NCBI GenBank assembly: GCA_016933055.1
Contig: JAFGBS010000033.1
Location: forward strand, 30,001-62,000
Direction: 5' to 3'
Origin: Promethearchaeota archaeon
GTDB lineage: Archaea; Asgardarchaeota; Lokiarchaeia; Sigyniarchaeales; Promethearchaeaceae
Length of the DNA stretch: 32,000 nt
A program made the translations under genes and the position numbers. The notes under the pieces are model-generated. The model saw only the letters and a list, made by a program, of their open reading frames with translations, did not search any database and had not been told where the DNA came from. Position 1 is the first letter of the stretch. Each line of letters starts with the position of its first letter. Of this stretch, positions 4,135 to 17,999 are shown piece by piece.

Positions 4135-5448
4135 TTACTTTTCCTCTTTGTTTGGTTTAGGGAGCGATAATAATGCTTTTTCAAGACGATGCATTATGTT
4201 TGAAACATCTTCTGAATTGAGTATCAAAGGTGGCATTAATTTTATAGTATCTTCCTTATTTCCGCAATAGTCAGCGAAGATACCATTTTCTATCATTCGG
4301 AGTGTCATGCCCACCCCGTAACGATGATTTGGAAATTCCATCCCCCACATTAATCCTCTTCCACGCACATCTACAATAATATCTTGAAGTAAGGGATTAT
4401 TCTTAAATTCTAAAAGCCCTTTTTCAAATTCTTTACTAATTTTTCTGACATGCTCTAAAAATTCTGGTGCTGAGATAATATCTAGCATTGTACGAGTTAC
4501 ATAGCATCCTAATTCGCTACCTCCCGTAGTACTAATATGGATAAATGGATCTTGTTCAAAAACTTCTCCGATGAATGATTTATAACTACATGTAGCAATC
4601 GGATATACACTAGAACTCATTCCTTTTGCTAGTACAATAATATCGGGAACTATTTTTTCATGAGGATAAAGTCCTCCATAAATCCCCCATAATTCTCCAG
4701 TTCGTCCTAATCCTGTTTGAACTTCATCCGCAATCATGATTACTCCTAGTTCATCACATAATTCTCGTATTCGAGTAAAATATCCTTCTTCTGGGATCAA
4801 AATGCCACCAGTCGCAGGAATCGTTTCCAAGATCACACAAGCCGTTTCTTCATCAATAACTTTCTCAAATTCTTCAATATCTCCAAAGGTTACTTGCTGA
4901 TAATCGGGTAAGTTCCACATGAAAGCATCCTTAAAACGCGCATTTCCAGCACCTAACGCTACTCCTGTCACTCCGTGATATCCTGTTTTAGCAGAAAGGA
5001 TCTTTTTTCGTTTTGTTGTGCTTCTTGAAAGTTTGATTGCTAAATCGATTGCTTCACCCCCTCCAACACAGAATTGGGTATTAGTAATGCCTCCAGGCAT
5101 CAATTCTGCGAGATTCTTAGCGAGAAGGGCTCTTTGTTCACTCAAGAGATGGTGATCTCCGATATCAAGACCAGCTTCAATTCCCCTCTTTAAGGCTTCT
5201 ATAATTTTTGGATAACCATGACCGAGATTAAACACCCCCCCACTGGTTCGGCAGTCGATCAATTGCATTGGTGGTGTATTTTTTCGAATCCCCTCCAACA
5301 TATGGATATAAATCCCCTCTCTTTTTCCTTGAATAGCCCCTAATCCCAGACTCTTAAAAAATTCAGCCTTCGGTTTAGAAATATATTTTGAATATAATTT
5401 TACCAGTTCCTTTTGTGATAGAGAACCAATGATTTTGTGTTCAGTCAT
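4135..5448 (-). CDS. Class III PLP-dependent aminotransferase (putrescine/acetylornithine aminotransferase-like)
   Basis: GGVFNLGH, GGGEAID.AIKL, YHG.T, DEVQTGLGRTG, LAKG (PLP lysine), RGRGLMWG and LMPPL. Confidence 0.93.
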   Translation of the reverse strand: MTEHKIIGSLSQKELVKLYSKYISKPKAEFFKSLGLGAIQGKREGIYIHMLEGIRKNTPPMQLIDCRTSGGVFNLGHGYPKIIEALKRGIEAGLDIGDHHLLSEQRALLAKNLAELMPGGITNTQFCVGGGEAIDLAIKLSRSTTKRKKILSAKTGYHGVTGVALGAGNARFKDAFMWNLPDYQQVTFGDIEEFEKVIDEETACVILETIPATGGILIPEEGYFTRIRELCDELGVIMIADEVQTGLGRTGELWGIYGGLYPHEKIVPDIIVLAKGMSSSVYPIATCSYKSFIGEVFEQDPFIHISTTGGSELGCYVTRTMLDIISAPEFLEHVRKISKEFEKGLLEFKNNPLLQDIIVDVRGRGLMWGMEFPNHRYGVGMTLRMIENGIFADYCGNKEDTIKLMPPLILNSEDVSNIMHRLEKALLSLPKPNKEEK

Positions 5449-5539
5449 TCAATATAACACTCAGAAAATCTTTCGTTAGCCTATCTTTTTGTAGTTCAGT
5501 AAATTAAAGGTTTTGAAAAGAAAGGAGAATAAAAAGTAT

Positions 5540-6844
5540 CTACTCCACCGCTGTTAAATCCGTACCCTTGGTTTCCTTAAGAAAAATGTGGATTAATGGT
5601 ATGTTTAAGAGTACTGGAATACCGAAAATGAGAAATGTAATACCTAATCCGATATGTTGAGTCGAAAATGCCCCAATAAAAAAACCTAAAGTAATTCCTA
5701 AGGACTGTACGAATGCACGAAATCCACTCCCCGTACCTCTACGATCAGTAGGTAAAATTTCAACTATGATGATTCTAAATAGAATCTGTAACCCATTATG
5801 ACCTATGTAACCCATGGTCATACCCATACTTATCAACAAAAATTCATTTGATCCCAATTTTCCCCCAAGATAAAGTAGAACACTTCCGATGGGAAGCATT
5901 GCGGAAAAGATGTAGAGTAAAAATTTGCGTCCAATTTTATCCGATAAGAACGCGATGACTAAATAAGCAATAATTATAGAAACTGCAATTATCATAATTA
6001 TATTACTGATTGCATCTTCCGTTAAACTGGTGTTACTTGCTGCAAAGGATTCAGCCATTTGAAGCAATAGATAATTTAAACCTAAAGTAAAACTCATAAA
6101 AGCAAGAACGAGAACTTCGGCTTTCCGCGTAGATTTAAACAACAATTTCAGATTTTTGTTGAATTTTGGTTTAAGTTCACTCTTAATTTTAATCGCATCT
6201 TTTTTCATCAATTCGAATTTAGATGATTCTTTAATTGTGAAGATCATTAACATTCCAAGGGGAAATGCTAAAGCTATTGGAAAATACGTCATTCCCCTCC
6301 ACGATCCAATCTCAGATCCCTCCGGTATGAAAATGTTACGAAATAACGGAATGAAAATGGGACCTAGAATCCCTAAAGCCATTACAATATTCGTGTAAAG
6401 GCCTCTATGTTTGGCATCTGATTCTTCCGTAATGTATATTAACCACATATCAGAACTGACAAACATATACGTGAACACTAAAAAAATTGTATAGGTTTGA
6501 ATGTTTACAGAGAAATTAAGCAGTAAAGCCGCTAAACCCATACCAAATGTTGTTAGTATTAACATCAGTTTTCGTCCAAATCGATCAGAAATACCTTGAC
6601 TGAAAAATACAAAATACATACCGAGTGTAGCTAAGCCAATTGAGAGATTCATGATGGAATCTGCTTTATTTTGAGAATATCCACTAAGAAATTCTTCAAT
6701 TATTTTCGAAGGAAATGATCCCGTGTAGGAAGCACTGTAAGAATCTAATAATTGAACAAAAACTAAGATTATCAATAAATAAATGAAATATCCCTTTTTT
6801 CTTTTTACGGTAGTGGCTCCTTTTTCATCAATCACATTAGACAT
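5540..6844 (-). CDS. MFS transporter
   Basis: 12 TM pattern with motif A twice (SDRFGRK, SDKIGRK), E..PTDRRG.G.G and a terminal KETKG. Confidence 0.92.
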   Translation of the reverse strand: MSNVIDEKGATTVKRKKGYFIYLLIILVFVQLLDSYSASYTGSFPSKIIEEFLSGYSQNKADSIMNLSIGLATLGMYFVFFSQGISDRFGRKLMLILTTFGMGLAALLLNFSVNIQTYTIFLVFTYMFVSSDMWLIYITEESDAKHRGLYTNIVMALGILGPIFIPLFRNIFIPEGSEIGSWRGMTYFPIALAFPLGMLMIFTIKESSKFELMKKDAIKIKSELKPKFNKNLKLLFKSTRKAEVLVLAFMSFTLGLNYLLLQMAESFAASNTSLTEDAISNIIMIIAVSIIIAYLVIAFLSDKIGRKFLLYIFSAMLPIGSVLLYLGGKLGSNEFLLISMGMTMGYIGHNGLQILFRIIIVEILPTDRRGTGSGFRAFVQSLGITLGFFIGAFSTQHIGLGITFLIFGIPVLLNIPLIHIFLKETKGTDLTAVE

Positions 6845-6961
6845 AGAATCCTTTCGACCAATTGTTGTATTAAAATGTTTTCTTCTCTAAGACTTGCATT
6901 TCTTAACATTTAATAACTTTATAACTGAATTATATTCCATTTAGAAACGAGTTGGATCCAC

Positions 6962-8335
6962 ATGACTGAAACACCGAAAAAACATAAAGGGACAAATCGA
7001 CAGAAAATTGCATTTGCGTTTGGAAATATCGGAGGTTTAGCTATCGCACAATCATCAATATTGCTATTATTCTCACATTACTATTCAAACCTTTCTATTC
7101 CACTTTCTGGATTAGGTATAGGTTTAATTTTAGTAATTTATGGAATATGGGATGCCATCAATGAACCATTATTAGGGCATATTTCCGACCTAACTCGTTC
7201 AAAATGGGGTAGACGCAAACCATTCATTATTATCGGATGTATTCCTCTAATAGTTTTTTCCGTCTTAATTTATACAGTACCCAATCTTAGTAAAATTTGG
7301 ACGTGGATCTATCTTTTGGTAGTACTAATCGGATATGAATCATTTGTAACCATGGTTGTGACTAGTTGGTATTCTCTGTACGCAGAAATGAGTTTGAATG
7401 AAAAAGAACGAGTCGACACTTCTAAGTTCATGCAAATGTTTGGGATTGTAGGTTTAGTCATTGGATTAGGGGTTGCACCTTTAATTGCTGGTTCCTTTTA
7501 TCCTAATCACATCCTTGGATATGGGGTTATGGGATTTGTATTAGCGATAATAACTGTTTGCGCAATGCTCCCGACTATTCTAATAGTGAAAGAAAATCCT
7601 GCCTACCAAATTCAAAAAGAAGAAAGATATCAATTTTTTGAATCCATGAAAACCTCATTTAAAAATAAGTCGTTTGTATTTTATGTGTTAGTTCAATTTC
7701 TGTTACAATTAGCTTATGCTGTGGTAGTTTCAAGCCTACCTTTGTTCTTTAAAGGGATTTTAAATTTGGGAGACCTTGAATATTCTTTAATATTATTAGC
7801 TGCTTTCATTACAGTCATCCCCTCGTTATTTCTTTGGATGAAAGTTGCAGAGAAAAAAGGAAGTAAATTCGCTTTAATAGCTTCAATGATTTGCTTTGGA
7901 ATAGTGTTTCCGTTTGTCTTCTTGATGAAAACAGTACCTATTGCCGTTATTATATTGTTATTAGCTGGGGTAGGCTTGTCCGGTTTAATGATGTTTCCTA
8001 CCGTGCTATTGGGAGACGTAATAGATGAAGATCAAACTATAACAATGAAAAGGAGAGAAGGTTATTATGCGGGGGTTTCGGGGGTTCTGATTAAATTATC
8101 TAGTGCACTTAGTTGGGGTATTATTGCGATATTTGTGACTTTTTTTAAAGTCCCTCGTGAAAATTTAGAGAGTATTACATTAACCGGGTTGCCTCGCCTT
8201 GGATTACAAATACTAGTCGGAGTGTTACCAGTAATAATTATAATTATTGGATTGCTATGCTTATGGAAATATCCTTTAACAGGCGACAGACTGAAATTAG
8301 TGAAAGAAAAAGTCGAGGAACTAAATAAATCTTAA
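6962..8335 (+). CDS. MFS transporter, GPH/MelB-like family
   Basis: WDAINEPLLGHISD.TRSKWGRRKPF, DVIDEDQ..T.KRREG.Y.G and about 12 TM segments. Confidence 0.93.
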   Translation: MTETPKKHKGTNRQKIAFAFGNIGGLAIAQSSILLLFSHYYSNLSIPLSGLGIGLILVIYGIWDAINEPLLGHISDLTRSKWGRRKPFIIIGCIPLIVFSVLIYTVPNLSKIWTWIYLLVVLIGYESFVTMVVTSWYSLYAEMSLNEKERVDTSKFMQMFGIVGLVIGLGVAPLIAGSFYPNHILGYGVMGFVLAIITVCAMLPTILIVKENPAYQIQKEERYQFFESMKTSFKNKSFVFYVLVQFLLQLAYAVVVSSLPLFFKGILNLGDLEYSLILLAAFITVIPSLFLWMKVAEKKGSKFALIASMICFGIVFPFVFLMKTVPIAVIILLLAGVGLSGLMMFPTVLLGDVIDEDQTITMKRREGYYAGVSGVLIKLSSALSWGIIAIFVTFFKVPRENLESITLTGLPRLGLQILVGVLPVIIIIIGLLCLWKYPLTGDRLKLVKEKVEELNKS

Positions 8336-8364
8336 TTACTCTCTAATTTAGGCGGTTAAAATCC

Positions 8365-10419
8365 ATGGAACAAGAAAATCCCAAAAATAAACCTGATTCT
8401 TTTTGGGAATTCTTTTTAAATCAACTTGCAAAAAAAACTCGTAGTAGATTGGGAAAATCAAGAAAATTAACACGAGCAATTTTTGGTGTACAAGAACGAC
8501 CTAAAGTATACATTACTCTGGGAGTACATGGTAATATTTTATATTCCGACATCGGATATTGTGAATTTGATTCTCCTGAGCGTGTATGGAAATTCATTCA
8601 AAAATGGGCTGATATGGCTCCTGTTCTTCCTATCGGTTTCGAGATAGGGATTTGTTCTTTAGAAAATTTAGCCAAATTTTATCCCATCTGGAAATTATTT
8701 CAAAAGAAGAATGTAGAAATTATAAATCCTTTGTACAGTCAACCGTATTTACGTCACCTTGGTGAAGAATCTAATATTCGTCAGTTGAAGTTTGGTTTGG
8801 AGATTCTTAAGCAAAATGACATTTCGTGTGGAGTTTATTCATCCTCCGAACATACTCTACATCCTCAATTACCTCAATTGCTCTATGGTTTTAGGATAAA
8901 AAACGTTTACGCGACAACAAGATTAGGAGGAGGAGCTCCTACTAGTTATCTGCCAAAACTCTATTGGAAGGGATTGGATGGCACTACCATTAAATGCATT
9001 GTAAACCAATCAGGTATTCCTAATGGACAGGTATGGCACGGAAAATTCTTCCAAGAACTCGCAAGTTTGCTATTTTTAGCATTTTCTCGACCTGATTTAT
9101 CATGGGTATTATACGAGAATATTGAGGATGTAGCTTATGATTTTCCAGAAATTCAGGAGATTTATGATCACATAGAGGAATTTGAGCATTCTAATATTCA
9201 TTTTAGAAGATTTGGAGATATTTTTTCTAATCAATGTCCATTTTCTCGTATAATATCATGGAAAATTGAAGATTTTCCGCTACAATTTATGTATTCCCAA
9301 GTGATTTCGGAAGTACGAAAACTGGAGGATTACCTAATCAATCAAGAAGCCATCTCTTCCTTACTCTCATTATTGGATTTTGAAATCCCTTCCCCATCGT
9401 TTGAGGAAATTTGGAAAAGACTGCTTACGGCTCAAAATCATGATGCGTATATTGTTCCCTACGTAACTCACGGATTGTATCTCTTGTCTCAAGGATTATC
9501 TGAGATTAATCCTTCAGGATTGACTATTGAAGAAAAATCTCTGCAAATTTTAAATCAGGCTAAAACAGAAATAGATGAGAAAACCAAATTTACTCCATCC
9601 TTAAACCAATCATATGAAGAAGCATATATCAATTGGTTGTGGAGTAGAGAGATCCTTGATGGTGATCATCTTATTTCGTTACCATCATGCGGTTATGCAA
9701 AAACACATTCTGCATCCTATAAGTCCAAAACCTATCCCTCCAAAGGAAATCGTTCTCTGAATAATCTTCTCGCTTGGATAGAATCCCCAGTATTAGATGG
9801 TCTTAATACATCCAAATATATTAGATTAGAGGATTATTCGGTAGAACTTGAAGACCATTATATATATCAGAAACTTAGAATCTGTTCAAAAAAAGACTTT
9901 GAACTCATTATATCTAATTGTGAGGAATTGTATATCACCTATCCATTTGGAGCACAAAAAACAACAGAGACCTATGGACATTCTCATCGATTCTATTGGA
10001 TTAACAAAAAACTTGTCATTGTTCACTTTGGATGCCCTTATTTCACTTGTAATGGAGAAAAACTTAGGATTAAAGTATCTAGAGGTGACCACCTCTTCGG
10101 GTTGGGATTAGCTTCTACCTTGAAAATGGCATATCATCTAGCGTGGGATTTCTTTTTTCCACCTCAGAAGGTAATGATTCCCATTTCATCCAAAGATTCC
10201 CAATCCCTTTTACGCATCAAATTTAATGATTTTATCCCTACATCCATACGTAAAAGGGGATCAGAAACAATATTACGCGGATTTTGTGTTGGTAAGTCTT
10301 CTCCAAAGGTAGAAAATGGCACTTTTCTCGATTTAAACGATATTAGACAAGACGGGAAAATCAAGCAAACAAACAAATCCTCTAAATGGAAGATCCTATC
10401 CTATTTAGTAAACGACTGA
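8365..10419 (+). CDS. Divergent GH38 (alpha-mannosidase)/GH57-like glycoside hydrolase
   Basis: YSQP....GEESNIRQL..G, LPQLL, YWKGLDGT and WKRLLTAQNHD resemble GH38 N-terminal and middle domain motifs. Confidence 0.7.
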   Translation: MEQENPKNKPDSFWEFFLNQLAKKTRSRLGKSRKLTRAIFGVQERPKVYITLGVHGNILYSDIGYCEFDSPERVWKFIQKWADMAPVLPIGFEIGICSLENLAKFYPIWKLFQKKNVEIINPLYSQPYLRHLGEESNIRQLKFGLEILKQNDISCGVYSSSEHTLHPQLPQLLYGFRIKNVYATTRLGGGAPTSYLPKLYWKGLDGTTIKCIVNQSGIPNGQVWHGKFFQELASLLFLAFSRPDLSWVLYENIEDVAYDFPEIQEIYDHIEEFEHSNIHFRRFGDIFSNQCPFSRIISWKIEDFPLQFMYSQVISEVRKLEDYLINQEAISSLLSLLDFEIPSPSFEEIWKRLLTAQNHDAYIVPYVTHGLYLLSQGLSEINPSGLTIEEKSLQILNQAKTEIDEKTKFTPSLNQSYEEAYINWLWSREILDGDHLISLPSCGYAKTHSASYKSKTYPSKGNRSLNNLLAWIESPVLDGLNTSKYIRLEDYSVELEDHYIYQKLRICSKKDFELIISNCEELYITYPFGAQKTTETYGHSHRFYWINKKLVIVHFGCPYFTCNGEKLRIKVSRGDHLFGLGLASTLKMAYHLAWDFFFPPQKVMIPISSKDSQSLLRIKFNDFIPTSIRKRGSETILRGFCVGKSSPKVENGTFLDLNDIRQDGKIKQTNKSSKWKILSYLVND

Positions 10420-10459
10420 ATAGAAAATTTATATCTAACTTAGGCAGTAAAGTAATTTT

Positions 10460-11137
10460 ATGGAGTTAAAAAGAAAAGAACTAAAAAAAATTATAACAGA
10501 CTATAACTCTCTTTACTCATGTGCGGTATCTGATGCAATAGACGAATTAGGATTGGAACCTGGATTTTTACCACACGATTTTCGTCCCATTTGGCCGGGA
10601 GCACGAATAATTGGATTTGCAGGTATAATAAAAATGATTCCTTCCGAAGAACCTCTAGATGATAACGTTATAGCAAAATTGGGAACATATTTTGGTCAGA
10701 TGCCCAAATTTCCCATATTTTGTGTAGATATGGACGGTAAAATGCTTGCAGCGGGATTGGGTCAAGGAACAAGTCGAATCTTACGGGGATTTGGATTCAA
10801 AGGCGGACTAGTGAATGGTCCTGTAAGAGATATCCCGCAAGTTACTGCACAAGGATTTCCAATTTTTGCTCGAGGAATCATATGTTCCTCAATTCGAGGT
10901 AGAATGAACATAGATTTCGACGCTGTGAATAAACCCTTTAACATTGGAGATCGAACCATTCATCCAGGTGATCTTATCTTTGGAGATATAAATGGAGTAG
11001 TAGTTGTACATCAAGAGAATTTGCTAGAAGTTCTCGAAAAAGCTAAAGAAATTGCATCCACAGACGAATGGTGGTATAAGCAATTAGAAAATGGTCGAGA
11101 TCCCTCTGATATTGAGAAAGAACGTCCACTACCGTGA
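10460..11137 (+). CDS. RraA-family protein (class II pyruvate-dependent HMG/CHA-type aldolase-like)
   Basis: AVSDA, G.AG, G..V.G.VRD, FPIFARG and I.PGDLIFGD.NGVVVV. Confidence 0.85.
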   Translation: MELKRKELKKIITDYNSLYSCAVSDAIDELGLEPGFLPHDFRPIWPGARIIGFAGIIKMIPSEEPLDDNVIAKLGTYFGQMPKFPIFCVDMDGKMLAAGLGQGTSRILRGFGFKGGLVNGPVRDIPQVTAQGFPIFARGIICSSIRGRMNIDFDAVNKPFNIGDRTIHPGDLIFGDINGVVVVHQENLLEVLEKAKEIASTDEWWYKQLENGRDPSDIEKERPLP

Positions 11138-11149
11138 GGAGGATTATAT

Positions 11150-12130
11150 ATGAAAATTTTAATCACAGGTAGCGCGGGGTACTTAGGAAAAAATCTAGTT
11201 ACTAAATCACTAGAACGAAATATGGATGTAGTTGGGATTGATATTAAACCCAACAACATATTGAATACTCAGTATATTGAAGAAATCTGTGACATAGTGT
11301 ATAAGGATTTAGTGCATGATGTTTTTAATCGCCATAAGCCTGATGTAGTCGTACATTGTGCTGGTGCCCTTGCACAGTTCGTTTCTGATGAAGAAAAAAT
11401 GCACGAGATAAATGTTGAGGGAACCCGCATCCTATTGGATGAATCTTGGAACCAGAGAGAATCAGTAAAGAAGTTCATTTTTCTATCCTCGGTTGAAGTA
11501 TATGGAATCGATATTCCAATTCCCTGCCCTGAAACAGCTCCGATGAATCCTGTCTGCCAATATGGAGAGGATAAAGCAGAATGTGAAGAATTATGTGATA
11601 AATATTCAGAAAAAGGATTGAAAATCACAATATTTCGTCCTCCTACAATTACTGGTCCAGGTCAAAACGAACCTACATTACTCGGACAAATAAAAAATGC
11701 ATATAAAGGTAGAAGAGCATTTTTACCAGGAGGAGGATATACAAAACTTCAAATGGTAAATGTGTTTGATGTTTGTGAAGCGATCTTCCTTGCAATCGAT
11801 AATCCTAAATCGAACGGGGAAATTTTCAATCTTGGAAGTGATAATATTCCCACTCTTCGTGAAATGGTAGTTGCACTCTATGAATATGCAGGCAAAACCC
11901 CAAAATTCTTTGCATTGGGAGCGGGGATCCTCCGTTTTATTGTAAAAATTCTGAGTTTTTTACACATATCCCCAATAGAACCCCAACATTTGGAGATAGC
12001 TCTTAAAGATTATACCTTTGATACAACGAAAATTAAAAAAATCTTGGATTGGAAACCAACAAGAACAGATTCCGAATCCGCTTGTGATACTTATGATTGG
12101 TATATAAATTCACTCCAAAAACAACAATAA
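11150..12130 (+). CDS. Extended SDR: NAD-dependent epimerase/dehydratase/dehydrogenase
   Basis: TGSAGYLG NAD-binding motif, VHCA, N..GT, SS.EVYG, YGEDK (YxxxK) and RP..I.GPG. Confidence 0.9.
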   Translation: MKILITGSAGYLGKNLVTKSLERNMDVVGIDIKPNNILNTQYIEEICDIVYKDLVHDVFNRHKPDVVVHCAGALAQFVSDEEKMHEINVEGTRILLDESWNQRESVKKFIFLSSVEVYGIDIPIPCPETAPMNPVCQYGEDKAECEELCDKYSEKGLKITIFRPPTITGPGQNEPTLLGQIKNAYKGRRAFLPGGGYTKLQMVNVFDVCEAIFLAIDNPKSNGEIFNLGSDNIPTLREMVVALYEYAGKTPKFFALGAGILRFIVKILSFLHISPIEPQHLEIALKDYTFDTTKIKKILDWKPTRTDSESACDTYDWYINSLQKQQ

Positions 12131-12151
12131 TATGAAAATAGGAGAAGAAGA

Positions 12152-12955
12152 ATGTTAAAAACGGAAAAATACGAGGATCTGACTATTATTACAACTGGTC
12201 GGGGTTTTCTCGGTGCATATATTTATCCGGTTTATAGTTATTTATTGGATGATTTACTTATTGACACGGGAACAACAATATGTAGGAATCAATTACTGGA
12301 TTTTCTAGATGATAAAGTAATCAAAATAATCGTAAATACACATGCTCATGAAGATCATGTTGGAAATAATGCAATTTTAAACGAAAGAAGAGATATTACA
12401 CTTTATGCGCATAGGGAAGCAATTAAACGGATTGAAAATCCCGCTCTTCTTGATCTGCGTAGATATCAAAAATTTACGTGGGGAGTTCCTCAATCCTCAA
12501 AACCAAGTGAAATTCCCTCTGAAATCAAAACCAAATCCCATTTACTAGAAGTGATCCATACTCCTGGACATTGTCCGGGGCATATTTGCCTATATGAACC
12601 TACGAAGAAATGGCTTTTTTCAGGAGATCTTCATGTTGGTAAATTATCTCTTGAGGTACAACCTTTCGAAAATTTGTTACAAATCATGACCTCACTGGAA
12701 ATATTAACTAATTATGAGGTGAAAGAGATTTTTTGTGCACATCTTGGCCATATTCCAAATGGAAATATGGTCCTTCAAAACAAACTTGCTTTTTTAAAAA
12801 ATGCAAAGGAACACGCAGAGAAATTATATTCAGAACATTTATCCTTAAAAGAAATTACCAATCAAATTGCGGGTAAAGAAACAATTATGAAAGTAATTAC
12901 AAAGGGACATATGTCGAAACTAAATGGAATAAAAAGTCTTTTACAAATGCAATAG
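12152..12955 (+). CDS. Metallo-beta-lactamase-fold hydrolase (possible lactonase)
   Basis: LIDTG, THAHEDHVG (HxHxDH), HTPGH, FSGD and a terminal AH metal ligand. Confidence 0.9.
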   Translation: MLKTEKYEDLTIITTGRGFLGAYIYPVYSYLLDDLLIDTGTTICRNQLLDFLDDKVIKIIVNTHAHEDHVGNNAILNERRDITLYAHREAIKRIENPALLDLRRYQKFTWGVPQSSKPSEIPSEIKTKSHLLEVIHTPGHCPGHICLYEPTKKWLFSGDLHVGKLSLEVQPFENLLQIMTSLEILTNYEVKEIFCAHLGHIPNGNMVLQNKLAFLKNAKEHAEKLYSEHLSLKEITNQIAGKETIMKVITKGHMSKLNGIKSLLQMQ

Positions 12956-12964
12956 GTAAACAGA

Positions 12965-14647
12965 ATGAATAAATCTCAACAGGAATCCGATCCCAAAGCT
13001 AGGAGTAAAGAAATATTTAGTTTAATTAAAAACACCCCGTTTTACTATGTCACGACTGGAATAATGAAGGGCATTGGTCTTGAAGCAAAAGAGATTGAGC
13101 GTAAACCCTTAATTGGGGTAGTCAATACATGGAATGAGTTAAATCCCGGTCATAAACATTTACGATATCTTGCAGAAGGTGTAAAATGGGGAGTATTAGA
13201 ATCAGGAGGAATTCCTCTTGAATTCAATACAATTGCTCCATGTGATGGATGGGCGAATGGAAATGATGGAATGCGATATATTCTTCCTCAGCGGGAAATA
13301 ATTGCGGACTCTATTGAATGTATGATACAAGCCCATCGTCTGGATGCAATGGTAACACTCTCGAGCTGTGACAAAATCAATCCTGCGGTATTAATGGCAG
13401 CGATACGTTTAGATATTCCAACCATTTGCGTTCCTGGAGGTCCTAGTTTATACGACATTCATTGGATCCCGCAAAATGAATACAAAGGTATTGAGCAAGA
13501 GAATTATGAGAATTTTGATACAAAAGTAAATTGTATATCCTGTGGAACATGTGGTGCATGTGAACAAATGGGTACTGCAAATACTTTTCAATGTTTAATG
13601 GAAGCTTTTGGAATGACTTTGCCAAATGCCGCCACAATCCCAGCAGTGACCCAACAGAAATATATTATTGCAAAACAATCCGGGAAACAAATTTTAACCC
13701 TACTCGAGAAGAACATAATTCCATCGAAAATTATGACACAGAAATCCTTAGAGAATGTTATAAAAGTCGATCTAGCCATAGGAGGTTCCACTAATTCTGC
13801 AATTCATTTACCGGCAATCGCCCATGAAATGGGAATTGATTTTAATCTAGATTGGTTTAATGATTATAGCAAAATAATTCCTACAATTGTGAATGTCTCT
13901 CCTACTGGAAGTTATGGAATTTCGGATTTATATAAAGCAGGGGGGATTTCGGCAGTATTAAAGCGTTTGGAATCCCATCTTAATTTGGATTGTTTAACCG
14001 TATCGGGAAAAACTCTAAAAAAAGTCATCAAAAAAGTAGAAATTTTGGATCCTAATGTAATACATCCTCTAGAAAATCCTGTATTTCCTGAGGGGGGGAC
14101 GGTGATCTTGAAAGGCAATTTAGCCCCTGAAGGTGCCGTTATTAAGCAGAGTGCAATTAGAAAAACAAATTTACTGAAATTTTCTGGAAAAGCGATAGTA
14201 TTTAATTCAGAAAAAGATGCCATAGAAGCACTACTCCAAGATAAAATCAAAAATGGGAATGTTGTAGTGATTCGCTATGAAGGTCCTAAAGGAGGACCGG
14301 GAATGCCCGAGCTGCTTGCTTTCACTGCTTCCTTAATGCTCTATAAGGGTTTACAGGATATTGCACTGATTTCTGACGGGCGATTTTCTGGTGCAACATG
14401 GGGTCCATGTATTGGACATGTATGTCCCGAAGCGTATGAGGGGGGTCTGATCGCAGTGGTTCAAGAAGGGGATCCAATTGATATTGACATACCCAAACGG
14501 AAACTCCATTTAAATGTGTCTGAAAGAGAAATTGAGAATCGATTCAATGATTGGAAAAGAATAGAACGGGATATTAAGAGTAGTACCCTTTTAAAATATC
14601 GAAAATTGGTCTCTTCAGCTAGCGAAGGTGCGGTGTTGAGATTTTAG
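12965..14647 (+). CDS. ilvD: IlvD/Edd-family dihydroxy-acid / sugar-acid dehydratase
   Basis: NPGH, PCDG, CDK, C..MGTANT, GGSTN..IHL, GNLAPEGAVIK, YEGPKGGPGMPE, DGRFSG and GHV.PEA. Confidence 0.92.
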   Translation: MNKSQQESDPKARSKEIFSLIKNTPFYYVTTGIMKGIGLEAKEIERKPLIGVVNTWNELNPGHKHLRYLAEGVKWGVLESGGIPLEFNTIAPCDGWANGNDGMRYILPQREIIADSIECMIQAHRLDAMVTLSSCDKINPAVLMAAIRLDIPTICVPGGPSLYDIHWIPQNEYKGIEQENYENFDTKVNCISCGTCGACEQMGTANTFQCLMEAFGMTLPNAATIPAVTQQKYIIAKQSGKQILTLLEKNIIPSKIMTQKSLENVIKVDLAIGGSTNSAIHLPAIAHEMGIDFNLDWFNDYSKIIPTIVNVSPTGSYGISDLYKAGGISAVLKRLESHLNLDCLTVSGKTLKKVIKKVEILDPNVIHPLENPVFPEGGTVILKGNLAPEGAVIKQSAIRKTNLLKFSGKAIVFNSEKDAIEALLQDKIKNGNVVVIRYEGPKGGPGMPELLAFTASLMLYKGLQDIALISDGRFSGATWGPCIGHVCPEAYEGGLIAVVQEGDPIDIDIPKRKLHLNVSEREIENRFNDWKRIERDIKSSTLLKYRKLVSSASEGAVLRF

Positions 14648-14650
14648 CGA

Positions 14651-15931
14651 GTGAACACTATTATGAATTCACACAGTATTAAATCAATTCAAATTCCTTG
14701 GGGGGCATGGTATCTCCAACCCGAATCTCTCACTATCAATTTTCCAGAACAATGGACGATTCAATCTTTTTCAACAAAAAATTCCCGTTCCATTCAAAAT
14801 GACCTAAATAAAATTAAGACCTCTATACTTCACCCCTTTGGAACGCACCCCCTAGCTGAGATAGCCCAAAGGAAGAATTCGGTCGCAATTGTCATCGAAG
14901 ATATATCAAGACCCTCTAAATTGGATACTATCATGGATATTGTGCTAGAAGAATTAGAAAAAACCGGAGTCTCACGAGACCAAATCACAATTATTGGTGC
15001 ATTAGGTGCCCATCGACCTATGACAAGGATGGATTATATTAAGAAGCTATCGAAAGAAATATGTCAATCTATAAATATCGAAAACCATCATCCGTATGAA
15101 AATTTGGAATACCTTGGGGAATCCAAAACGGGAACTCCTATCTATGTGAACAAAACCTATTTTAATGCAGATTTAAAAATCGCTATAGGAACAGTCATTC
15201 CCCATCCACTAGCAGGATTTGGAGGAGGAGCCAAACTCATTCTTCCGGGCGTTTCAGGAATTGAGACATTGCTTGGGAACCATCAAGCGGGTGTTAGGGG
15301 GGTGGGAATTGGACTTGGAGTTATAACTGAATTACGAGAGGATATTGAAGATGTGTGTAAAACGGTCGGTTTAGATTTCTCCATCAATCTTGTTTCTAAT
15401 CCAAAACGGGAAATATCGGGTATATTTGCAGGAGATTTCGTTCAGGCACATCGCCAAGCCATAGAGTTCGCGAAAAATGCATATTCTTTTTTTCTTCCAA
15501 GACTTAAAAGAGAGGATAAATTTGATATTGCATTTTTTAATCTGTATCCAGAAGATTTGGAGTTTACACAATCCATAAAGTGGATTAATTTATTTTTGTC
15601 ATGTGCATCTTTATTAAAAAGGAAAGCACCATGTGTAATTATGACTGCTTCGCCCGAGGGGAGAGGATTTCACAGTCTTTCGGGGGAAACAGGCTCAAAA
15701 ATGTTTCAGAATTGGTCGGAAAATCCCGTTGTAGGACCGTTATTGGAAAAACGGAAAATAATCGTGTTCTCACCAAACCTTTCAAAATTCGATGTATTTC
15801 ACTCATATTCAAAAAACACCTTATTGTTCCATGAATTTTCTGATATAATTTCCAATATACGAGGAGATATACCAGAGGATGCAAAAGTGGCATTATTTCC
15901 CAATAGTTTGAGTTTGCCTATCACAAAATAG
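14651..15931 (+). CDS. larA: LarA-family nickel-pincer-nucleotide-dependent racemase/epimerase
   Basis: D..RP, A.GAHR, NH and PH..AGFGGGAKLILPG with the conserved Lys, followed by the downstream NH His. GTG start (alternative ATG at 14663). Confidence 0.85.
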   Translation: MNTIMNSHSIKSIQIPWGAWYLQPESLTINFPEQWTIQSFSTKNSRSIQNDLNKIKTSILHPFGTHPLAEIAQRKNSVAIVIEDISRPSKLDTIMDIVLEELEKTGVSRDQITIIGALGAHRPMTRMDYIKKLSKEICQSINIENHHPYENLEYLGESKTGTPIYVNKTYFNADLKIAIGTVIPHPLAGFGGGAKLILPGVSGIETLLGNHQAGVRGVGIGLGVITELREDIEDVCKTVGLDFSINLVSNPKREISGIFAGDFVQAHRQAIEFAKNAYSFFLPRLKREDKFDIAFFNLYPEDLEFTQSIKWINLFLSCASLLKRKAPCVIMTASPEGRGFHSLSGETGSKMFQNWSENPVVGPLLEKRKIIVFSPNLSKFDVFHSYSKNTLLFHEFSDIISNIRGDIPEDAKVALFPNSLSLPITK

Positions 15932-16196
15932 AAAAAAAAGTAGAGATTATCCGTGATGAAGGATATGATATTACTGAAATAGGTGGATTTTAGATAAGAT
16001 TCCACATGTTCTCTACCGCTATAGCGATCAGTAATTGACGAAATGATGACGAATATCTCTATTGTTTCTTTATAAGATATCATTATCATTCTCTGTATCG
16101 ATATACTATAAAATTTCACTCATTTAACTGAGGATCTTTACAGATTTTAAGAGGATATGGAATTTCTAAGACGACGAGCTTCACAGTGCGATATAT

Positions 16197-16205
16197 AAAA
16201 AAAAA
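16197..16205 (-). terminator. Oligo-T (T9) terminator
   Basis: A9 on + strand about 45 bp downstream of the 16251 stop. Confidence 0.35.
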
Positions 16206-16250
16206 GAAGGCATAACGGTTTCTGTTTAGAGTTAATTAATTATCTTATAT

Positions 16251-17147
16251 CTATCTTCCAGCTTGTACTGGTTTCGGCTTAAAAGTGTTTGCTAAAACAT
16301 TTTTCTTCCAACCAGCTGGAACTGAACCAGTATCTGCGTATACGAACAATGCTGTATTATATACCATATTAGCGACATTAAATACCAAATTCAGAAGGAT
16401 TAAATAAATCACTCCTAGAATTGCAAAAGTAATGCCTAGCCACATTACTGGAACCCAAATGAAGAATAAGAGGGATAGTCCACCAAAAACAATTAATCCA
16501 ATCAATCCAAATAAGAAACGCATTAATCCCATTCCAAAATACCGAATAATGCTCTCCCCCCAAGTCTTTTTAAGTGTTTCGACCGATTTTTTGATGGCTG
16601 CTTTGGGACCTAGATCGTAATATGTAATAGCTGGAACTACAAAAATGGTTGCAATATTCCACATGAAGCTCATGGCGCCTCTGAGCAATTGAATAATAAC
16701 TTTTCCGACTGTACCTAATCTATTAGCTATATTTTGTAGAACCGCCATTAGAACACCCCACAATCCGCTTATAGCACCCCAAGCCACTACACTTCCAAAT
16801 CTCTTAAATCCGTACTTGATACTCTGCCCTAGCGTAGCGTCACCACCTTCAAATCTGGTCTTCGCCGTATAACACGTACATACCCCGAAGAAGGTCGAAA
16901 TTACTGCTAATCCAAAGTATACTAAAAAAAGCCATAAATAGTATATAGCGTTCCATGTGAAATCATTAACGCTGCCTTGAAATAATTGGATAAGGATGGT
17001 AGGGAACAGAACTGCAATTGAGAACAAAGCAGAAAAAATTGAACTCAAAATCGGAAACCACAAGAGTTCTTTATCCGCTCTGATCACTGAAAAACTCAGA
17101 CGCATTACTTCACGTGATCGTTGAAATGCATTTGTCATATTAAACAC
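16251..17147 (-). CDS. Conserved membrane protein (DUF6159-like)
   Basis: S..V.R.DKELL.FP, multiple TM helices, W...T.FVVP.I, A.K.S...LKKTWGE and LF.YA.TG..P.G. The start may be the ATG at 17138. Confidence 0.7.
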   Translation of the reverse strand: MFNMTNAFQRSREVMRLSFSVIRADKELLWFPILSSIFSALFSIAVLFPTILIQLFQGSVNDFTWNAIYYLWLFLVYFGLAVISTFFGVCTCYTAKTRFEGGDATLGQSIKYGFKRFGSVVAWGAISGLWGVLMAVLQNIANRLGTVGKVIIQLLRGAMSFMWNIATIFVVPAITYYDLGPKAAIKKSVETLKKTWGESIIRYFGMGLMRFLFGLIGLIVFGGLSLLFFIWVPVMWLGITFAILGVIYLILLNLVFNVANMVYNTALFVYADTGSVPAGWKKNVLANTFKPKPVQAGR

Positions 17148-17162
17148 TAATTTTAAGATTAT

Positions 17163-17182
17163 ATGAACAAAAATTTGTTCAT
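17163..17182. promoter_or_regulatory. Perfect 20-bp palindromic operator candidate ATGAACAAA-AA-TTTGTTCAT
   Basis: 9-bp perfect arms with a 2-bp spacer, 16-25 bp upstream of the DUF6159-like start. Confidence 0.55.
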
Positions 17183-17246
17183 TAAGATGATTGTCTTATG
17201 CACTTAAGTAGTTAATCTTGTCAAGTAACCGTTATAAATCCATGAT

Positions 17247-17999
17247 TTATTGAAATTGAATGGGATTACTTTTTTTATAGTAACCAGAAAACATCAGATT
17301 ACATATGGGAGGAGCTTGTTTGCCAAGTTTAATTTTAACCAGTCGAAGAAGTTGATTAAGACCCATAATCACCAAACGATCTACATCATATATCCAAAAT
17401 CTATCCAATTTATTCGATGTAATTGTAAAAGATGTTGGTTTTGATCTTATATTATATTCAATTTTCAAACCAGGAAAAGGTTGAAAATCAAAATAGGACA
17501 GCAATTCTTCATCGATAGAAATATTTTCCCAATTGATCGTTCTTTCAATCATTGCTTTATCGAGTAACGGGGATGGAGTTTCCGAATAAATATCTTGAGG
17601 AAATTGTCTTTTAAGGATAGTGGATGTATAATTCAACAGTATTTCGCACAAATGACACAAGTCCTCTCCCGAAAGCCAGTGTACCTGCTTTCCCGAAAAT
17701 AGAAATTGCAGTTCATAGGGTTCCGTACTCAATCCTTCGTCATCAAATTGAAGTAATACATGTATCTTTATTTTAGGGAAATATACTTTTGTGATCGTCC
17801 ATAACTCACCAAATCCTATATTTTCTATTTCGATACCTAAACTTTCAGAAAGTGGTATTAAATCCTCAACCTTTAAATTTTGAAATGTAGATATATATTT
17901 GGTTCCCAGATCCTTAAGATCTCGATAATGGGGCGTTATTATACCCTTAACTGCATCAATTTGCTGAATTGTATAGAATTGAGATGAACTTGAACTCAT
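17247..17999 (-). CDS. DUF3786-like protein
   Basis: The FPKI.....DDE......FLF......GEDL pattern resembles DUF3786 (recalled, not searched). Confidence 0.5.
   Translation of the reverse strand: MSSSSSQFYTIQQIDAVKGIITPHYRDLKDLGTKYISTFQNLKVEDLIPLSESLGIEIENIGFGELWTITKVYFPKIKIHVLLQFDDEGLSTEPYELQFLFSGKQVHWLSGEDLCHLCEILLNYTSTILKRQFPQDIYSETPSPLLDKAMIERTINWENISIDEELLSYFDFQPFPGLKIEYNIRSKPTSFTITSNKLDRFWIYDVDRLVIMGLNQLLRLVKIKLGKQAPPICNLMFSGYYKKSNPIQFQ

What the first reader, a model, noticed from the sequence alone, without database searches (positions are those of the whole stretch)
6962..15931. Seven-gene operon that could encode a complete novel oxidative sugar-acid pathway using a nickel-pincer epimerase
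Seen: seven co-directional genes with gaps of 29, 40, 12, 21, 9 and 3 bp (GPH transporter, GH38-like hydrolase, RraA aldolase, SDR, MBL hydrolase, IlvD/Edd dehydratase, LarA). Known: GPH carriers import glycosides and GH38 releases mannose. MBL-fold enzymes include lactonases. A LarA homolog acts as D-gluconate/D-mannonate 2-epimerase. IlvD/Edd members dehydrate aldonates to 2-keto-3-deoxy acids, and RraA-like class II aldolases cleave 4-hydroxy-2-keto acids to pyruvate plus an aldehyde. Inferred route: glycoside -> aldose -> lactone -> aldonate -> C2 epimer -> 2-keto-3-deoxy acid -> pyruvate + aldehyde. This would be a non-phosphorylative Entner-Doudoroff-like route in a probable Asgard archaeon with an unusual enzyme set.
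Basis: partly seen in the sequence, partly recalled or inferred. Interest (0 to 1): 0.8.

Follow-up and report, generated by a model that had tools for sequence, protein, structure and literature searches.

The report
Conserved Asgard sugar-acid breakdown gene cluster
Seven tightly packed genes in an Asgard archaeon form a conserved, modular cluster that most likely imports a glycoside and breaks its sugar down through a sugar acid to pyruvate with an unusual set of enzymes, but which sugar it handles is still unknown.

Summary
In detail: seven co-directional ORFs lie at 6962-15931 with gaps of 29, 40, 12, 21, 9 and 3 bp, and all seven family calls hold.

The cluster is real and conserved. The same genes recur in shuffled order in other Asgard contigs. 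One relative has the SDR and MBL genes fused in frame.

Across 34 loci the constant core is the GH38-like protein, the RraA-like protein and a specialised IlvD. That IlvD forms its own clade (100/100 support), apart from the housekeeping-type paralogue found in the same genomes. The transporter and LarA are frequent additions.

SDR+MBL is replaced by a tungsten-type aldehyde:ferredoxin oxidoreductase (AOR) in 19 of 29 variant loci, and genomes of each type lack orthologues of the other module. In one further locus a DHDPS-family enzyme stands where RraA would be.

LarA keeps every catalytic and cofactor-binding residue, and the genome encodes LarB, LarC and LarE.

A non-phosphorylative, Entner-Doudoroff-like sugar-acid route is therefore the best reading. 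The specific mannose/mannonate story is not shown. The GH38-like protein has the fold, but Glu replaces the nucleophile Asp and the HxD metal motif is missing. LarA is not a GntE-type gluconate epimerase.

The parts
6845..6961 (.). 117-bp divergent intergenic region ahead of the first gene, with A/T-rich TATA-like elements (TTTATAA at 6918-6924, TTATATT at 6930-6936). Candidate archaeal promoter, unverified.
   Evidence: Sequence read directly. The bacterial-type promoter scan is not informative for an archaeon (31 sites found against 36.7 expected).
6962..8335 (+). GPH/MFS_2 family cation symporter (457 aa). Probable importer of the glycoside substrate.
   Evidence: PF13347 192 bits. TIGR00792 gph scores 176.9, below its cut-off of 231. 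Orthologues at 50-80% identity sit in related clusters.
8365..10419 (+). Divergent GH38-fold protein (684 aa). Probable cytoplasmic glycosidase of unknown specificity. Glu162 sits at the GH38 nucleophile position and the His359-Asp360 'QNHD' motif is conserved. Only one His (H55) remains of the HxD metal motif.
   Evidence: AF2 model with pLDDT 85.9. Foldseek against PDB and Swiss-Prot gives GH38. Profile alignment to Ams1 and family alignment blocks. The family is Asgard-only among named hits.
10460..11137 (+). RraA/HMG-CHA-aldolase-fold protein (225 aa). Proposed class II (metal-dependent) pyruvate aldolase that splits the 2-keto-3-deoxy acid.
   Evidence: PF03737 75.7 bits. PDB hit to 4-carboxy-4-hydroxy-2-oxoadipate aldolase 3noj. 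A V-R-D motif lies at 122-124. Orthologues at 61-85% identity lie beside cluster-type IlvD in 27 of 33 related loci. A DHDPS-family gene takes its place in L157.
11150..12130 (+). Extended SDR (326 aa) with the GxxGxxG and Y138xxxK142 motifs. Proposed NAD(P)-dependent oxidation of a cyclic hemiacetal (sugar C1) to a lactone.
   Evidence: PF01370 134.9 bits, and no NCBIfam equivalog passed (galE 81 against 262). Motifs read. Fused in frame to the MBL in L008.
12152..12955 (+). Metallo-beta-lactamase-fold hydrolase (267 aa) with an intact H64xH66xD68H69 motif. Proposed lactonase.
   Evidence: PF00753 84.3 bits. Motif read. Fusion partner of the SDR in L008. It always co-occurs with the SDR in the complete loci.
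12965..14647 (+). Specialised IlvD/Edd-family dehydratase paralogue (560 aa). Proposed sugar-acid (2,3-dihydroxy acid) dehydratase.
   Evidence: PF00920 and PF24877. A second, housekeeping-type IlvD lies next to an ALS-like TPP enzyme on contig C22. The cluster copy forms its own clade at 100/100. It is shifted towards L-arabinonate and galactonate dehydratases in PDB and NCBIfam scores.
14651..15931 (+). LarA-superfamily nickel-pincer (NPN) 2-hydroxyacid racemase/epimerase (426 aa from GTG 14651, probably 422 aa from ATG 14663). It belongs to an undescribed, Asgard-restricted subgroup.
   Evidence: Lar_N 183.6 bits. Catalytic and cofactor residues are conserved. No NCBIfam equivalog is passed. 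Close homologues are all Asgard. LarB, LarC and LarE are in the genome.

Best explanation
This is one version of a modular catabolic locus restricted to Asgard archaea, which turns a glycoside into pyruvate through a non-phosphorylated sugar acid. All enzymatic steps below are inferred from families, motifs and gene context. None is shown biochemically, and the sugar is unknown. The proposed flow is as follows. The GPH symporter imports a small glycoside. The cytoplasmic GH38-fold enzyme hydrolyses it. The released sugar is oxidised at C1 by the extended SDR to a lactone. The MBL-fold hydrolase opens the lactone to an aldonic (or, from a uronate, aldaric) acid. The NPN-dependent LarA inverts C2 when the acid has the wrong configuration for the dehydratase. 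The specialised [Fe-S] IlvD paralogue removes water across C2-C3 to give a 2-keto-3-deoxy acid. The RraA-fold class II aldolase splits that into pyruvate and an aldehyde. In sister lineages the SDR+MBL pair is absent and a dedicated aldehyde:ferredoxin oxidoreductase is present instead.
For: The gene order and gaps are confirmed. The same seven genes recur in a different order in a Lokiarchaeia contig, where the GH38-like protein is only 39% identical. They also recur in three or four further variant-A loci. SDR and MBL are fused in frame in L008, as expected for consecutive steps. Across 34 loci the GH38-like, RraA and IlvD genes are nearly always together. The cluster IlvD is a separate clade (100/100, branch 0.82) that coexists with housekeeping-type IlvD in the same genomes. 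It scores higher on sugar-acid dehydratases and lower on DHAD than its paralogue. AOR, which oxidises aldehydes, is in 19 of 29 variant-B loci. A DHDPS-family protein (the family of archaeal KDG aldolases and of KdgD) replaces RraA beside a cluster-type IlvD, AOR, a transporter and a GH172-like gene in L157. Cluster-type LarA pairs with cluster-type IlvD in three separate loci of one genome. LarA keeps D72, R75, H108, H174, K184, H200, Q295 and K298 equivalents, and LarB, LarC and LarE are encoded. RraA keeps an R-D motif, the SDR keeps YxxxK and the MBL keeps HxHxDH.
Against: No enzyme was assayed, and no member of these exact subfamilies has been characterised. SDR and MBL are missing from 29 of 34 loci and their orthologues are missing from five nearly complete variant-B genomes. 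Sugar oxidation is therefore either not essential to the core or is done there by something else. The IlvD still passes the ilvD equivalog cut-off (627 against 618). The closest PDB relatives of the SDR are nucleotide-sugar epimerases. The MBL's best named relatives are glyoxalase II enzymes. RraA-fold aldolases are known for aromatic-pathway dicarboxylates, not for sugar acids, and no paper linking RraA to sugar-acid routes was found. Kin are not independent: the A and B patterns rest on few lineages.
Confidence: 0.55

Rival explanations
1. The first reader's exact route, a special case of the best explanation: alpha-mannoside, then mannose, mannonolactone, D-mannonate, D-gluconate (made by LarA), KDG, and finally pyruvate plus glyceraldehyde.
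For: The fold is that of GH38 alpha-mannosidases, including E. coli mannosylglycerate hydrolase. The GH38 His-Asp 'QxHD' motif is kept. A C2 epimerase makes chemical sense for a manno-configured acid feeding a DHAD-type dehydratase. LarA homologues with mannonate/gluconate epimerase activity exist, including a convergent one, LarAH10 (PMC7583248, PMC11770544). A GH63/MGH1-like hydrolase lies 13 kb away in the window.
Against: The GH38-like protein has Glu, not Asp, at the nucleophile position. It lacks the HxD metal motif, is about 10-13% identical to GH38s and gets no GH38N Pfam hit. LarA scores 37 against 500 bits on the hexonate-epimerase model, and positions 175/176 are P-L, not E-V. According to PMC11770544, GntEs are known only from bacteria and some eukaryotes.
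Confidence: 0.2
2. Acid-aglycone, downstream-oxidation model. The imported glycoside already carries a 2,3-dihydroxy acid (a glycosyl-aldonate or glycosyl-glycerate type compound). The GH38-like enzyme frees that acid, and IlvD and RraA degrade it. SDR+MBL in this window, or AOR in the sister lineages, oxidise the aldehyde released by the aldolase. LarA racemises either the acid substrate or the 2-hydroxy acid made from the aldehyde.
For: The core found in 29 variant-B loci needs no sugar oxidation step. SDR+MBL and AOR exclude each other at genome level, as expected if both carry out the same aldehyde-to-acid step. LarA is directly adjacent to and co-directional with AOR in all ten variant-B loci that carry it. 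An AOR-RraA-LarA triad recurs with distant homologues next to a GH94-like gene in G002. GH38 includes a mannosylglycerate hydrolase. LarA homologues that racemise glycerate are known (PMC11770544 abstract).
Against: A dehydrogenase plus a lactonase implies a cyclic hemiacetal substrate, that is a sugar of at least four carbons. The C2-C3 aldehydes expected from hexonate or pentonate cleavage do not fit that. For glycerate itself no aldolase would be needed. No natural glycosyl-aldonate is known to me as a common substrate in anoxic sediments (own knowledge).
Confidence: 0.17
3. Uronate/aldarate version. A hexuronide is imported and hydrolysed. The SDR acts as a uronate dehydrogenase and the MBL opens the aldarolactone. 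LarA epimerises the aldarate, IlvD dehydrates it to 5-keto-4-deoxy-aldarate, and the RraA-fold aldolase gives pyruvate plus tartronate semialdehyde.
For: GPH carriers include hexuronide transporters. The nearest characterised LarA relatives act on dicarboxylates (malate racemase: LarAH6 model 235 bits, Mar2 175 bits). PMC7583248 itself proposes aldarate epimerisation for some LarAHs. Characterised RraA-fold aldolases prefer dicarboxylic 4-hydroxy-2-oxo acids (own knowledge). L157 combines cluster-type IlvD and LarA with a galactarate/altronate-dehydratase-family gene, a DHDPS-family (KdgD-like) gene and an AOR. L017 places a GH38-like gene next to PfkB, Eda and a classical SDR, as in uronate-to-KDG routes.
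Against: No uronate dehydrogenase structure appears among the SDR's PDB hits at E below 1e-10. No IlvD-family aldarate dehydratase is known to me. No GH38 is known to act on uronides.
Confidence: 0.15
4. There is no dedicated pathway. The genes are neighbours with ordinary separate roles: DHAD for branched-chain amino acids, a nucleotide-sugar epimerase, an RNase regulator and a lactate racemase.
For: IlvD passes the ilvD equivalog threshold by 9 bits. The SDR resembles GalE-type enzymes most. Public annotations call the neighbours 'RraA family protein' and 'lactate racemase'.
Against: Linkage is conserved across at least 34 loci with rearranged order. A separate housekeeping-type IlvD exists in the same genomes. 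LarA fails the lactate racemase equivalog (185 against 460) and lacks F175/F176. SDR and MBL are fused in a relative. To my knowledge RNase E, the target of RraA, is bacterial.
Confidence: 0.03

Closest known systems
Non-phosphorylative Entner-Doudoroff, Dahms and related oxidative sugar pathways (Sulfolobus/Thermoplasma npED; Caulobacter and Rhizobium pentose routes with IlvD/Edd-family aldonate dehydratases)
   Same: The chemistry runs in the same order: sugar, lactone, aldonate, 2-keto-3-deoxy acid, then pyruvate plus aldehyde. The aldehyde is oxidised by an oxidoreductase (AOR in the sister loci). An IlvD/Edd-family dehydratase is used, as in the bacterial xylonate and arabinonate routes (PMC9795676).
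   Different: The aldolase has an RraA/HMG-CHA fold rather than the class I DHDPS/NAL or KDPG type, or the HpaI type. The lactonase has an MBL fold rather than SMP30 or amidohydrolase. The dehydrogenase is an extended SDR. An NPN-dependent LarA epimerase is built in. The archaeal aldopentonate dehydratases characterised so far belong to the enolase superfamily. The route is coupled to a novel GH38-like protein.
GH38 alpha-mannosidases and mannosylglycerate hydrolase (e.g. S. pombe Ams1 6lz1/7vqo, S. pyogenes 2wyh, E. coli MngB)
   Same: The full-length fold matches (TM by query 0.6-0.72). The 'ES.IRQ', 'HPQLPQ-like' and 'Q.HD' motifs are aligned.
   Different: Identity is about 10-13%. Glu replaces the nucleophile Asp. 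'G(I/V)HGN' replaces the HxD metal-binding motif. The protein is shorter (684 aa). No GH38N Pfam hit is found. The family is Asgard-only.
LarA superfamily: malate racemase Mar2 (6d6z), broad-spectrum LarA (9eia), L. plantarum LarA (5huq), GntE D-gluconate 2-epimerases
   Same: The protein has the Lar_N domain, both catalytic histidines, the Lys that tethers NPN, the His Ni ligand, and the Arg/Gln/Lys that hold the carboxylate. Cofactor biosynthesis genes are present.
   Different: It is below every NCBIfam subgroup cut-off (best 235 against 500). Specificity positions 175/176 are P-L. The C-terminal part (after about residue 340) is not alignable with confidence and carries its own invariant EGRGFHSL..ETG motif. 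Its genomic partners (IlvD, RraA, AOR) were not found described in the papers searched.
HMG/CHA aldolase of protocatechuate degradation (RraA fold, P. putida 3noj)
   Same: It has the same fold family and a conserved Arg-Asp motif. The expected chemistry is retro-aldol release of pyruvate from a 4-hydroxy-2-oxo acid.
   Different: It scores only 64.5 bits against a cut-off of 179 on the equivalog model. Its context is carbohydrate, not aromatic, catabolism.

Membership tests
GH38 (class II alpha-mannosidase family) | Overall multi-domain GH38 fold | tested here: met
   AF2 model with pLDDT 85.9. Foldseek against PDB gives E 5e-21 to Ams1 and 2e-20 to SpGH38. Swiss-Prot MAN2C1 gives TM by query 0.71.
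GH38 (class II alpha-mannosidase family) | Significant match to the catalytic GH38 N-terminal domain model (PF01074) | tested here: not met
   Only Alpha-mann_mid at 23.9 bits, below its cut-off of 31.1. There is no PF01074 hit and no PDB hit by phmmer.
GH38 (class II alpha-mannosidase family) | Catalytic nucleophile Asp in the '(W)xxDxFG' motif | tested here: not met
   The profile alignment to Ams1 puts the invariant Glu162 opposite the Asp of 'WLPDTFG'. Glu is invariant in the 22-member family.
GH38 (class II alpha-mannosidase family) | Metal site formed by HxD at strand 1 plus His of 'QHHD' | tested here: inconclusive
   H359-D360 ('QNHD') is conserved and aligned with 'QFHD'. Strand 1 carries G(I/V)H55-G-N57, so one His is kept and the Asp is replaced. 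The extra invariant E67-F68-D69 loop has an unknown role. No residue-level structural superposition was available.
LarA / NPN-dependent 2-hydroxyacid racemase-epimerase superfamily | Lar_N domain with catalytic His108 and His174, NPN-binding Lys184, His200 and Arg75, and carboxylate-binding Gln295 and Lys298 (L. plantarum numbering) | tested here: met
   PF09861 183.6 bits. H121, H185, K195, H211, R87, Q307 and K310 are aligned to 5huq and invariant in seven orthologues.
LarA / NPN-dependent 2-hydroxyacid racemase-epimerase superfamily | Cofactor biosynthesis genes larB, larC and larE present in the genome | tested here: met
   LarB 247 bits (cut-off 175), LarE 213.8 (cut-off 150) and LarC/Ni_insertion 311.5 bits.
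GntE (D-gluconate/D-mannonate 2-epimerase, LarAH18-20) | Membership of the GntE branch, with the E-V/S signature at positions 175/176 | tested here: not met
   NF052594 scores 37 bits against a cut-off of 500. Positions 175/176 are P186-L187. The signature is taken from PMC11770544 and PMC7583248.
Lactate racemase proper (NF033504) | Equivalog score and F175/F176 | tested here: not met
   184.7 bits against a cut-off of 460. P-L stands in place of F-F.
Dihydroxy-acid dehydratase IlvD (TIGR00110 equivalog) | Score over the cut-off and a role as the genome's branched-chain DHAD | tested here: inconclusive
   627.2 bits against 618.15, a marginal pass. The genome has a second IlvD scoring 654 next to an ALS-like TPP enzyme. 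The cluster copy forms a separate 100/100 clade.
L-arabinonate / sugar-acid dehydratases of the IlvD/Edd family | Equivalog score (NF009559) or closest similarity to solved sugar-acid dehydratases | tested here: not met
   448.6 bits against a cut-off of 882. PDB scores are ArDHT 345 and DHAD 394. The copy is shifted towards ArDHT relative to the paralogue (299 and 438).
HMG/CHA aldolase (RraA fold) | RraA-like domain with the catalytic Arg-Asp pair, and the equivalog score | tested here: inconclusive
   PF03737 75.7 bits. The V122-R123-D124 motif is present (its identity with the catalytic pair is from memory, not from a displayed alignment). Equivalog NF006731 scores 64.5 against 179.
UDP-glucose 4-epimerase / nucleotide-sugar SDRs | galE or dTDP-glucose dehydratase equivalog score | tested here: not met
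   galE scores 81 against 262 and the dTDP-glucose 4,6-dehydratase model 89 against 365. The general extended-SDR motifs are present.
Non-phosphorylative ED-like pathway (as a system) | [quoted passage not shown] | not testable with these tools
   Only gene families, synteny, a fusion and module swaps are available.

The most novel reading that the evidence does not exclude
Asgard archaea possess their own widespread, modular, non-phosphorylative sugar-acid pathway built from enzyme recruitments not described elsewhere. [quoted passage not shown] In addition, an NAD(P)-dependent SDR+lactonase module and a ferredoxin-dependent tungsten AOR would be interchangeable for the same aldehyde-to-acid step. 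That could mean an AOR that oxidises a free aldose.
Probability: 0.3. Interest if true: 0.8.

Novelty: new variant of a known kind. Interest (0 to 1): 0.6.

Why it matters
Asgard archaea are the closest known prokaryotic relatives of eukaryotes, and their carbon metabolism is inferred almost wholly from genomes.

This locus type occurs in dozens of species-level genomes and hundreds of metagenomic contigs. It would define a common carbohydrate-use trait of the group.

It also offers four enzymes with probable new specificities:
- a GH38-like family with an altered catalytic centre
- an RraA-fold aldolase in sugar catabolism
- an archaeal LarA subgroup
- a DHAD-derived sugar-acid dehydratase

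The exclusive swap between an NAD(P)-linked SDR+MBL module and a ferredoxin-linked AOR is a clean natural experiment. It shows how anaerobes rewire the redox carrier of one pathway step.

All four enzymes are directly testable by expression and assay.

Tried and rejected
- The bacterial sigma-70 and intrinsic-terminator scan gave counts at or below shuffle expectation and does not apply to an archaeon.
- phmmer of the 684-aa protein against PDB found nothing relevant. Only the fold search and a family profile reached GH38.
- Protein-atlas look-ups of the SDR and MBL returned only generic family names.
- tblastn of the SDR against plasmids gave roughly 27-30% identical 'epimerase/dehydratase' genes. 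The one neighbourhood inspected (Halostagnicola) is a cell-envelope context, not sugar oxidation.
- I tried to place the LarA specificity residues equivalent to W358 and T359. The alignment there is weak and the columns vary among orthologues, so no call was made.
- I considered a tartrate route: LarA epimerase, IlvD as tartrate dehydratase giving oxaloacetate, and RraA as oxaloacetate decarboxylase. I set it aside because it leaves the transporter, the GH38-like protein, SDR+MBL and AOR unexplained. A DHDPS-family enzyme, which is not a decarboxylase of oxaloacetate, also replaces RraA in L157.
- I considered 2-keto-3-deoxy nonulosonic or octulosonic acids (KDN, KDO, sialic acids) as substrates. 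I rejected this because they need no IlvD dehydration.
- Extra neighbours in variant-B loci are not consistently present. They include DUF3604, a GlcD/CCG-type oxidoreductase, URO-D/B12 proteins and M28 peptidases.
- No phylogeny with biochemically characterised IlvD, LarA or SDR sequences was built, because no tool supplied those sequences.

Full report
**Observation**

The ORF list shows seven + strand ORFs at 6962-8335, 8365-10419, 10460-11137, 11150-12130, 12152-12955, 12965-14647 and 14651-15931. They are separated by 29, 40, 12, 21, 9 and 3 bp, exactly as reported.

Pfam and NCBIfam give these families:
- MFS_2/GPH
- a sub-threshold Alpha-mann_mid hit for the second gene
- RraA-like
- extended SDR (Epimerase family)
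- metallo-beta-lactamase
- ILVD_EDD N and C domains
- Lar_N

The public collection calls LarA from the ATG at 14663 (422 aa), and orthologues start there too. The last gap may therefore be 15 bp.

The window is from an Asgard archaeon. Close homologues are named Promethearchaeota, Lokiarchaeota, Helarchaeota or Sigynarchaeota. The window also carries a Roadblock-Ras fusion and a TBP gene.

**The GH38-like protein**

Sequence searches against PDB find nothing for this protein. Its relatives are hypothetical proteins from Asgard MAGs.

An AlphaFold2 model built on 22 homologues is confident (pLDDT 85.9, pTM 0.89). It matches GH38 alpha-mannosidases over its whole length. Examples are Ams1, the S. 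pyogenes and E. faecalis GH38s, Golgi mannosidase II, MAN2C1 and E. coli mannosylglycerate hydrolase. Foldseek E-values go down to 5e-24 and TM by query is 0.55-0.72, at 9-13% identity.

A family profile aligned to S. pombe Ams1 shows three things:
- The 'GES.IRQF' and 'Q.HD' motifs are shared. H359-D360 lies opposite the GH38 metal-binding His.
- The invariant Glu162 lies opposite the nucleophile Asp of 'WLPDTFG'.
- Strand 1 carries G(I/V)H55-G-N57 in place of the HxD metal motif.

'GH38-like' is therefore right for the fold. The catalytic centre is altered, and mannosidase activity cannot be assumed.

Full-length orthologues are rare, found in 5 of 400 species genomes of the phylum. A related form of about 830 aa (35-40% identical over residues 33-400) is in 44 of 135 genomes of a sister family.

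**Conservation of the cluster**

A relative at 59% identity (L008) has the same order, with SDR and MBL fused into one 596-aa reading frame without a stop.

A Lokiarchaeia contig has all seven genes in a different order: GH38-like, LarA, GPH, RraA, SDR, MBL, IlvD. There the GH38-like protein is only 39% identical. Another contig has MFS_2, RraA, SDR, MBL and IlvD, with the GH38-like gene 5 kb away. Genome G281 has RraA, SDR, MBL, LarA and IlvD.

I then fetched about 20 kb around RraA orthologues in 29 more genomes and mapped all components by tblastn. In these 'variant B' loci:
- the GH38-like gene (830-aa form) is present in 27 loci
- cluster-type IlvD is present in 25
- an aldehyde:ferredoxin oxidoreductase (identified) is present in 19
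- LarA is present in 10
- SDR and MBL are present in none

Many of the absences coincide with contig ends.

**A module swap**

Five variant-B genomes that are 92-100% complete have no SDR orthologue (best 27-32% identity, against 59-79% for true orthologues) and no MBL orthologue (best 30-34%).

Conversely, the variant-A genomes G000, G131 and G281 have many AOR paralogues. None is closer than 39% to the cluster AOR, whose orthologues are 59-91% identical to one another.

SDR+MBL and AOR therefore exclude each other. Both carry out a net aldehyde (or hemiacetal) to carboxylate oxidation. The two patterns rest on few lineages, so this is a pattern and not a statistic.

**IlvD**

The genome has two IlvD genes. 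The other copy lies on contig C22, divergent from an acetolactate-synthase-like TPP enzyme.

| Model or structure | C22 paralogue | Cluster copy |
|---|---|---|
| ilvD model TIGR00110 (cut-off 618) | 654 | 627 |
| DHAD 6nte | 438 | 394 |
| L-arabinonate dehydratase model NF009559 | 403 | 449 |
| L-arabinonate dehydratase structure | 299 | 345 |
| Galactonate dehydratase structure | 222 | 248 |

(Scores in bits.)

Relatives carry two to five IlvD genes. In a maximum-likelihood tree the cluster-linked copies form one clade (100/100, stem 0.82). The housekeeping-type copies from the same genomes are separate. Cluster copies are 62-86% identical to the window's copy, while the paralogues are 36-47% identical.

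The cluster copy is therefore a dedicated paralogue. It comes from the DHAD-like branch, whose members are known to accept sugar acids.

**LarA**

Alignment of seven orthologues to L. plantarum LarA (5huq) shows conservation of these residues (window residue first, L. plantarum equivalent in brackets):
- D84 (D72)
- R87 (R75)
- H121 (H108)
- H185 (H174)
- K195 (K184)
- H211 (H200)
- Q307 (Q295)
- K310 (K298)

The genome encodes LarB, LarC and LarE above their cut-offs, so an active NPN enzyme is expected.

LarA passes no NCBIfam subgroup model. Its scores are LarAH6 malate racemase 235 against 500, lactate racemase 185 against 460, and hexonate epimerase 37 against 500.

The specificity positions defined in PMC11770544 are F-F in lactate racemases and E-V in GntEs. 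Here they are P186-L187. The equivalents of W358 and T359 could not be placed.

The subgroup has its own invariant 'EGRGFHSL..ETG' motif, and all named close homologues are from Asgard archaea. The two other LarA paralogues in the genome are only 26% identical.

In genome G169, cluster-type LarA and cluster-type IlvD co-occur in three separate loci. This favours LarA acting on the IlvD substrate. In variant B, however, LarA always lies directly next to AOR, which keeps a downstream role possible.

**RraA, SDR and MBL**

The RraA-like protein keeps a V-R-D motif at 122-124. The SDR has GxxGxxG and Y138xxxK142. The MBL has H64xH66xD68H69.

The RraA clade is large and Asgard-specific among named hits.

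The strongest clue to its role is locus L157 of G169. There an AOR-like gene, a DHDPS-family gene, cluster-type IlvD, an MFS carrier and a DUF2961 (GH172-like) gene lie in a row. LarA, an esterase and a galactarate/altronate-dehydratase-family gene sit nearby. The DHDPS family contains the archaeal KDG aldolases and 5-keto-4-deoxyglucarate dehydratase (own knowledge). A DHDPS-family enzyme thus occupies the place of RraA next to the dehydratase. In another contig the GH38-like gene follows PfkB, a KDPG-aldolase-family gene, BKACE and a classical SDR.

No paper in the searchable library links RraA-fold proteins to sugar-acid routes, or links LarA with IlvD in Asgard archaea.

**Interpretation**

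The data support a dedicated route with these steps: glycoside import, hydrolysis, a sugar acid, C2 epimerisation, alpha,beta-dehydration, retro-aldol cleavage to pyruvate plus an aldehyde, and one aldehyde-to-acid oxidation. That oxidation is done by SDR+MBL here and by AOR elsewhere.

The fusion of a dehydrogenase with a hydrolase, and the need for a hydrolase at all, point to a cyclic hemiacetal, that is a sugar, as the SDR substrate.

The evidence does not fix three things:
- the sugar, which could be manno-configured hexose, 6-deoxyhexose, pentose or uronate
- whether the acid is aldonic or aldaric
- whether the oxidation module acts before the dehydratase or on the aldolase product

The specific mannoside/mannonate/gluconate proposal remains possible (about 0.2). 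It has lost its two main props: a canonical GH38 active site and a GntE-type LarA.

**Limits**

No activity, transcript or structure-based residue superposition was available. Characterised reference sequences for IlvD, LarA and sugar-active SDRs could not be brought into a tree. Related genomes are not independent samples.

Noticed in passing
window 651-6844: A divergent upstream module holds MFS_2 (651-2150, -), YdjC-like (2257-3156, +), DUF6206 (3157-4134, -), a class III aminotransferase (4135-5448, -) and an MFS (5540-6844, -). The MFS_2, DUF6206, aminotransferase and MFS genes are conserved next to the seven-gene cluster in the close relative L008 at 72-82% identity; YdjC was not found there. 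The module may belong to the same regulon or handle an amino-sugar part of the same substrate.
   Followed up: partly
window 27442-30566: An MFS transporter (27442-28764, +) converges on a GH63/MGH1-like hydrolase (28761-30566, -; mannosylglycerate-hydrolase-like domain 177.8 bits). This is a second glycoside-use pair, 12 kb from the cluster.
   Followed up: no
G000 contig C22 (L011 3058-11169): The second, housekeeping-type IlvD overlaps divergently with an ALS-like TPP enzyme. It also lies next to a GFO/IDH/MocA oxidoreductase, an MFS_2 carrier and an AOR, so this locus may also have a sugar-related role.
   Followed up: partly
L157 (G169:C3:23000-42999) 2877-14064: A third architecture: LarA, an esterase and a galactarate/altronate-dehydratase-family gene on one strand. 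On the other strand lie an AOR-like gene, a DHDPS-family gene, cluster-type IlvD, an MFS and DUF2961 (GH172-like). G169 carries three cluster-type IlvD loci in all.
   Followed up: partly
L135 (G002:C1:1951000-1970999) 5439-17501: Distant homologues form an AOR, RraA-like, LarA-like triad (RraA-like 38% and LarA-like 30% identical to the window's proteins). It sits with a thioesterase, DUF3604, an MFS and a GH94-like phosphorylase. GH94 includes cellobionic acid phosphorylases (own knowledge).
   Followed up: no
L017 6589-12097: A 41%-identical GH38-like gene lies at the end of a PfkB, KDPG-aldolase-family (PF01081), BKACE and classical SDR row. This resembles KDG-forming uronate routes.
   Followed up: no
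L080 (G169:C9) 11727-13004: An OrfB_IS605/TnpB-like gene is inserted between RraA and IlvD in one variant-B locus.
   Followed up: no
L009 8962-9960 and L016 6510-7556: An alpha/beta-hydrolase (Abhydrolase_1) gene directly precedes the GH38-like gene in two unrelated contigs. It may be an esterase that prepares an acylated glycoside.
   Followed up: no
L136, L137, L139, L140 (family f31 genomes): A more distant RraA-like clade (36-38% identity) is present in 56 of 89 genomes of another family. In the four loci listed here it lies about 4 kb from a PfkB and KDPG-aldolase pair. In L136 the genes between them are a glycyl-radical enzyme, an aminotransferase and an ATC-hydrolase-like gene.
   Followed up: no
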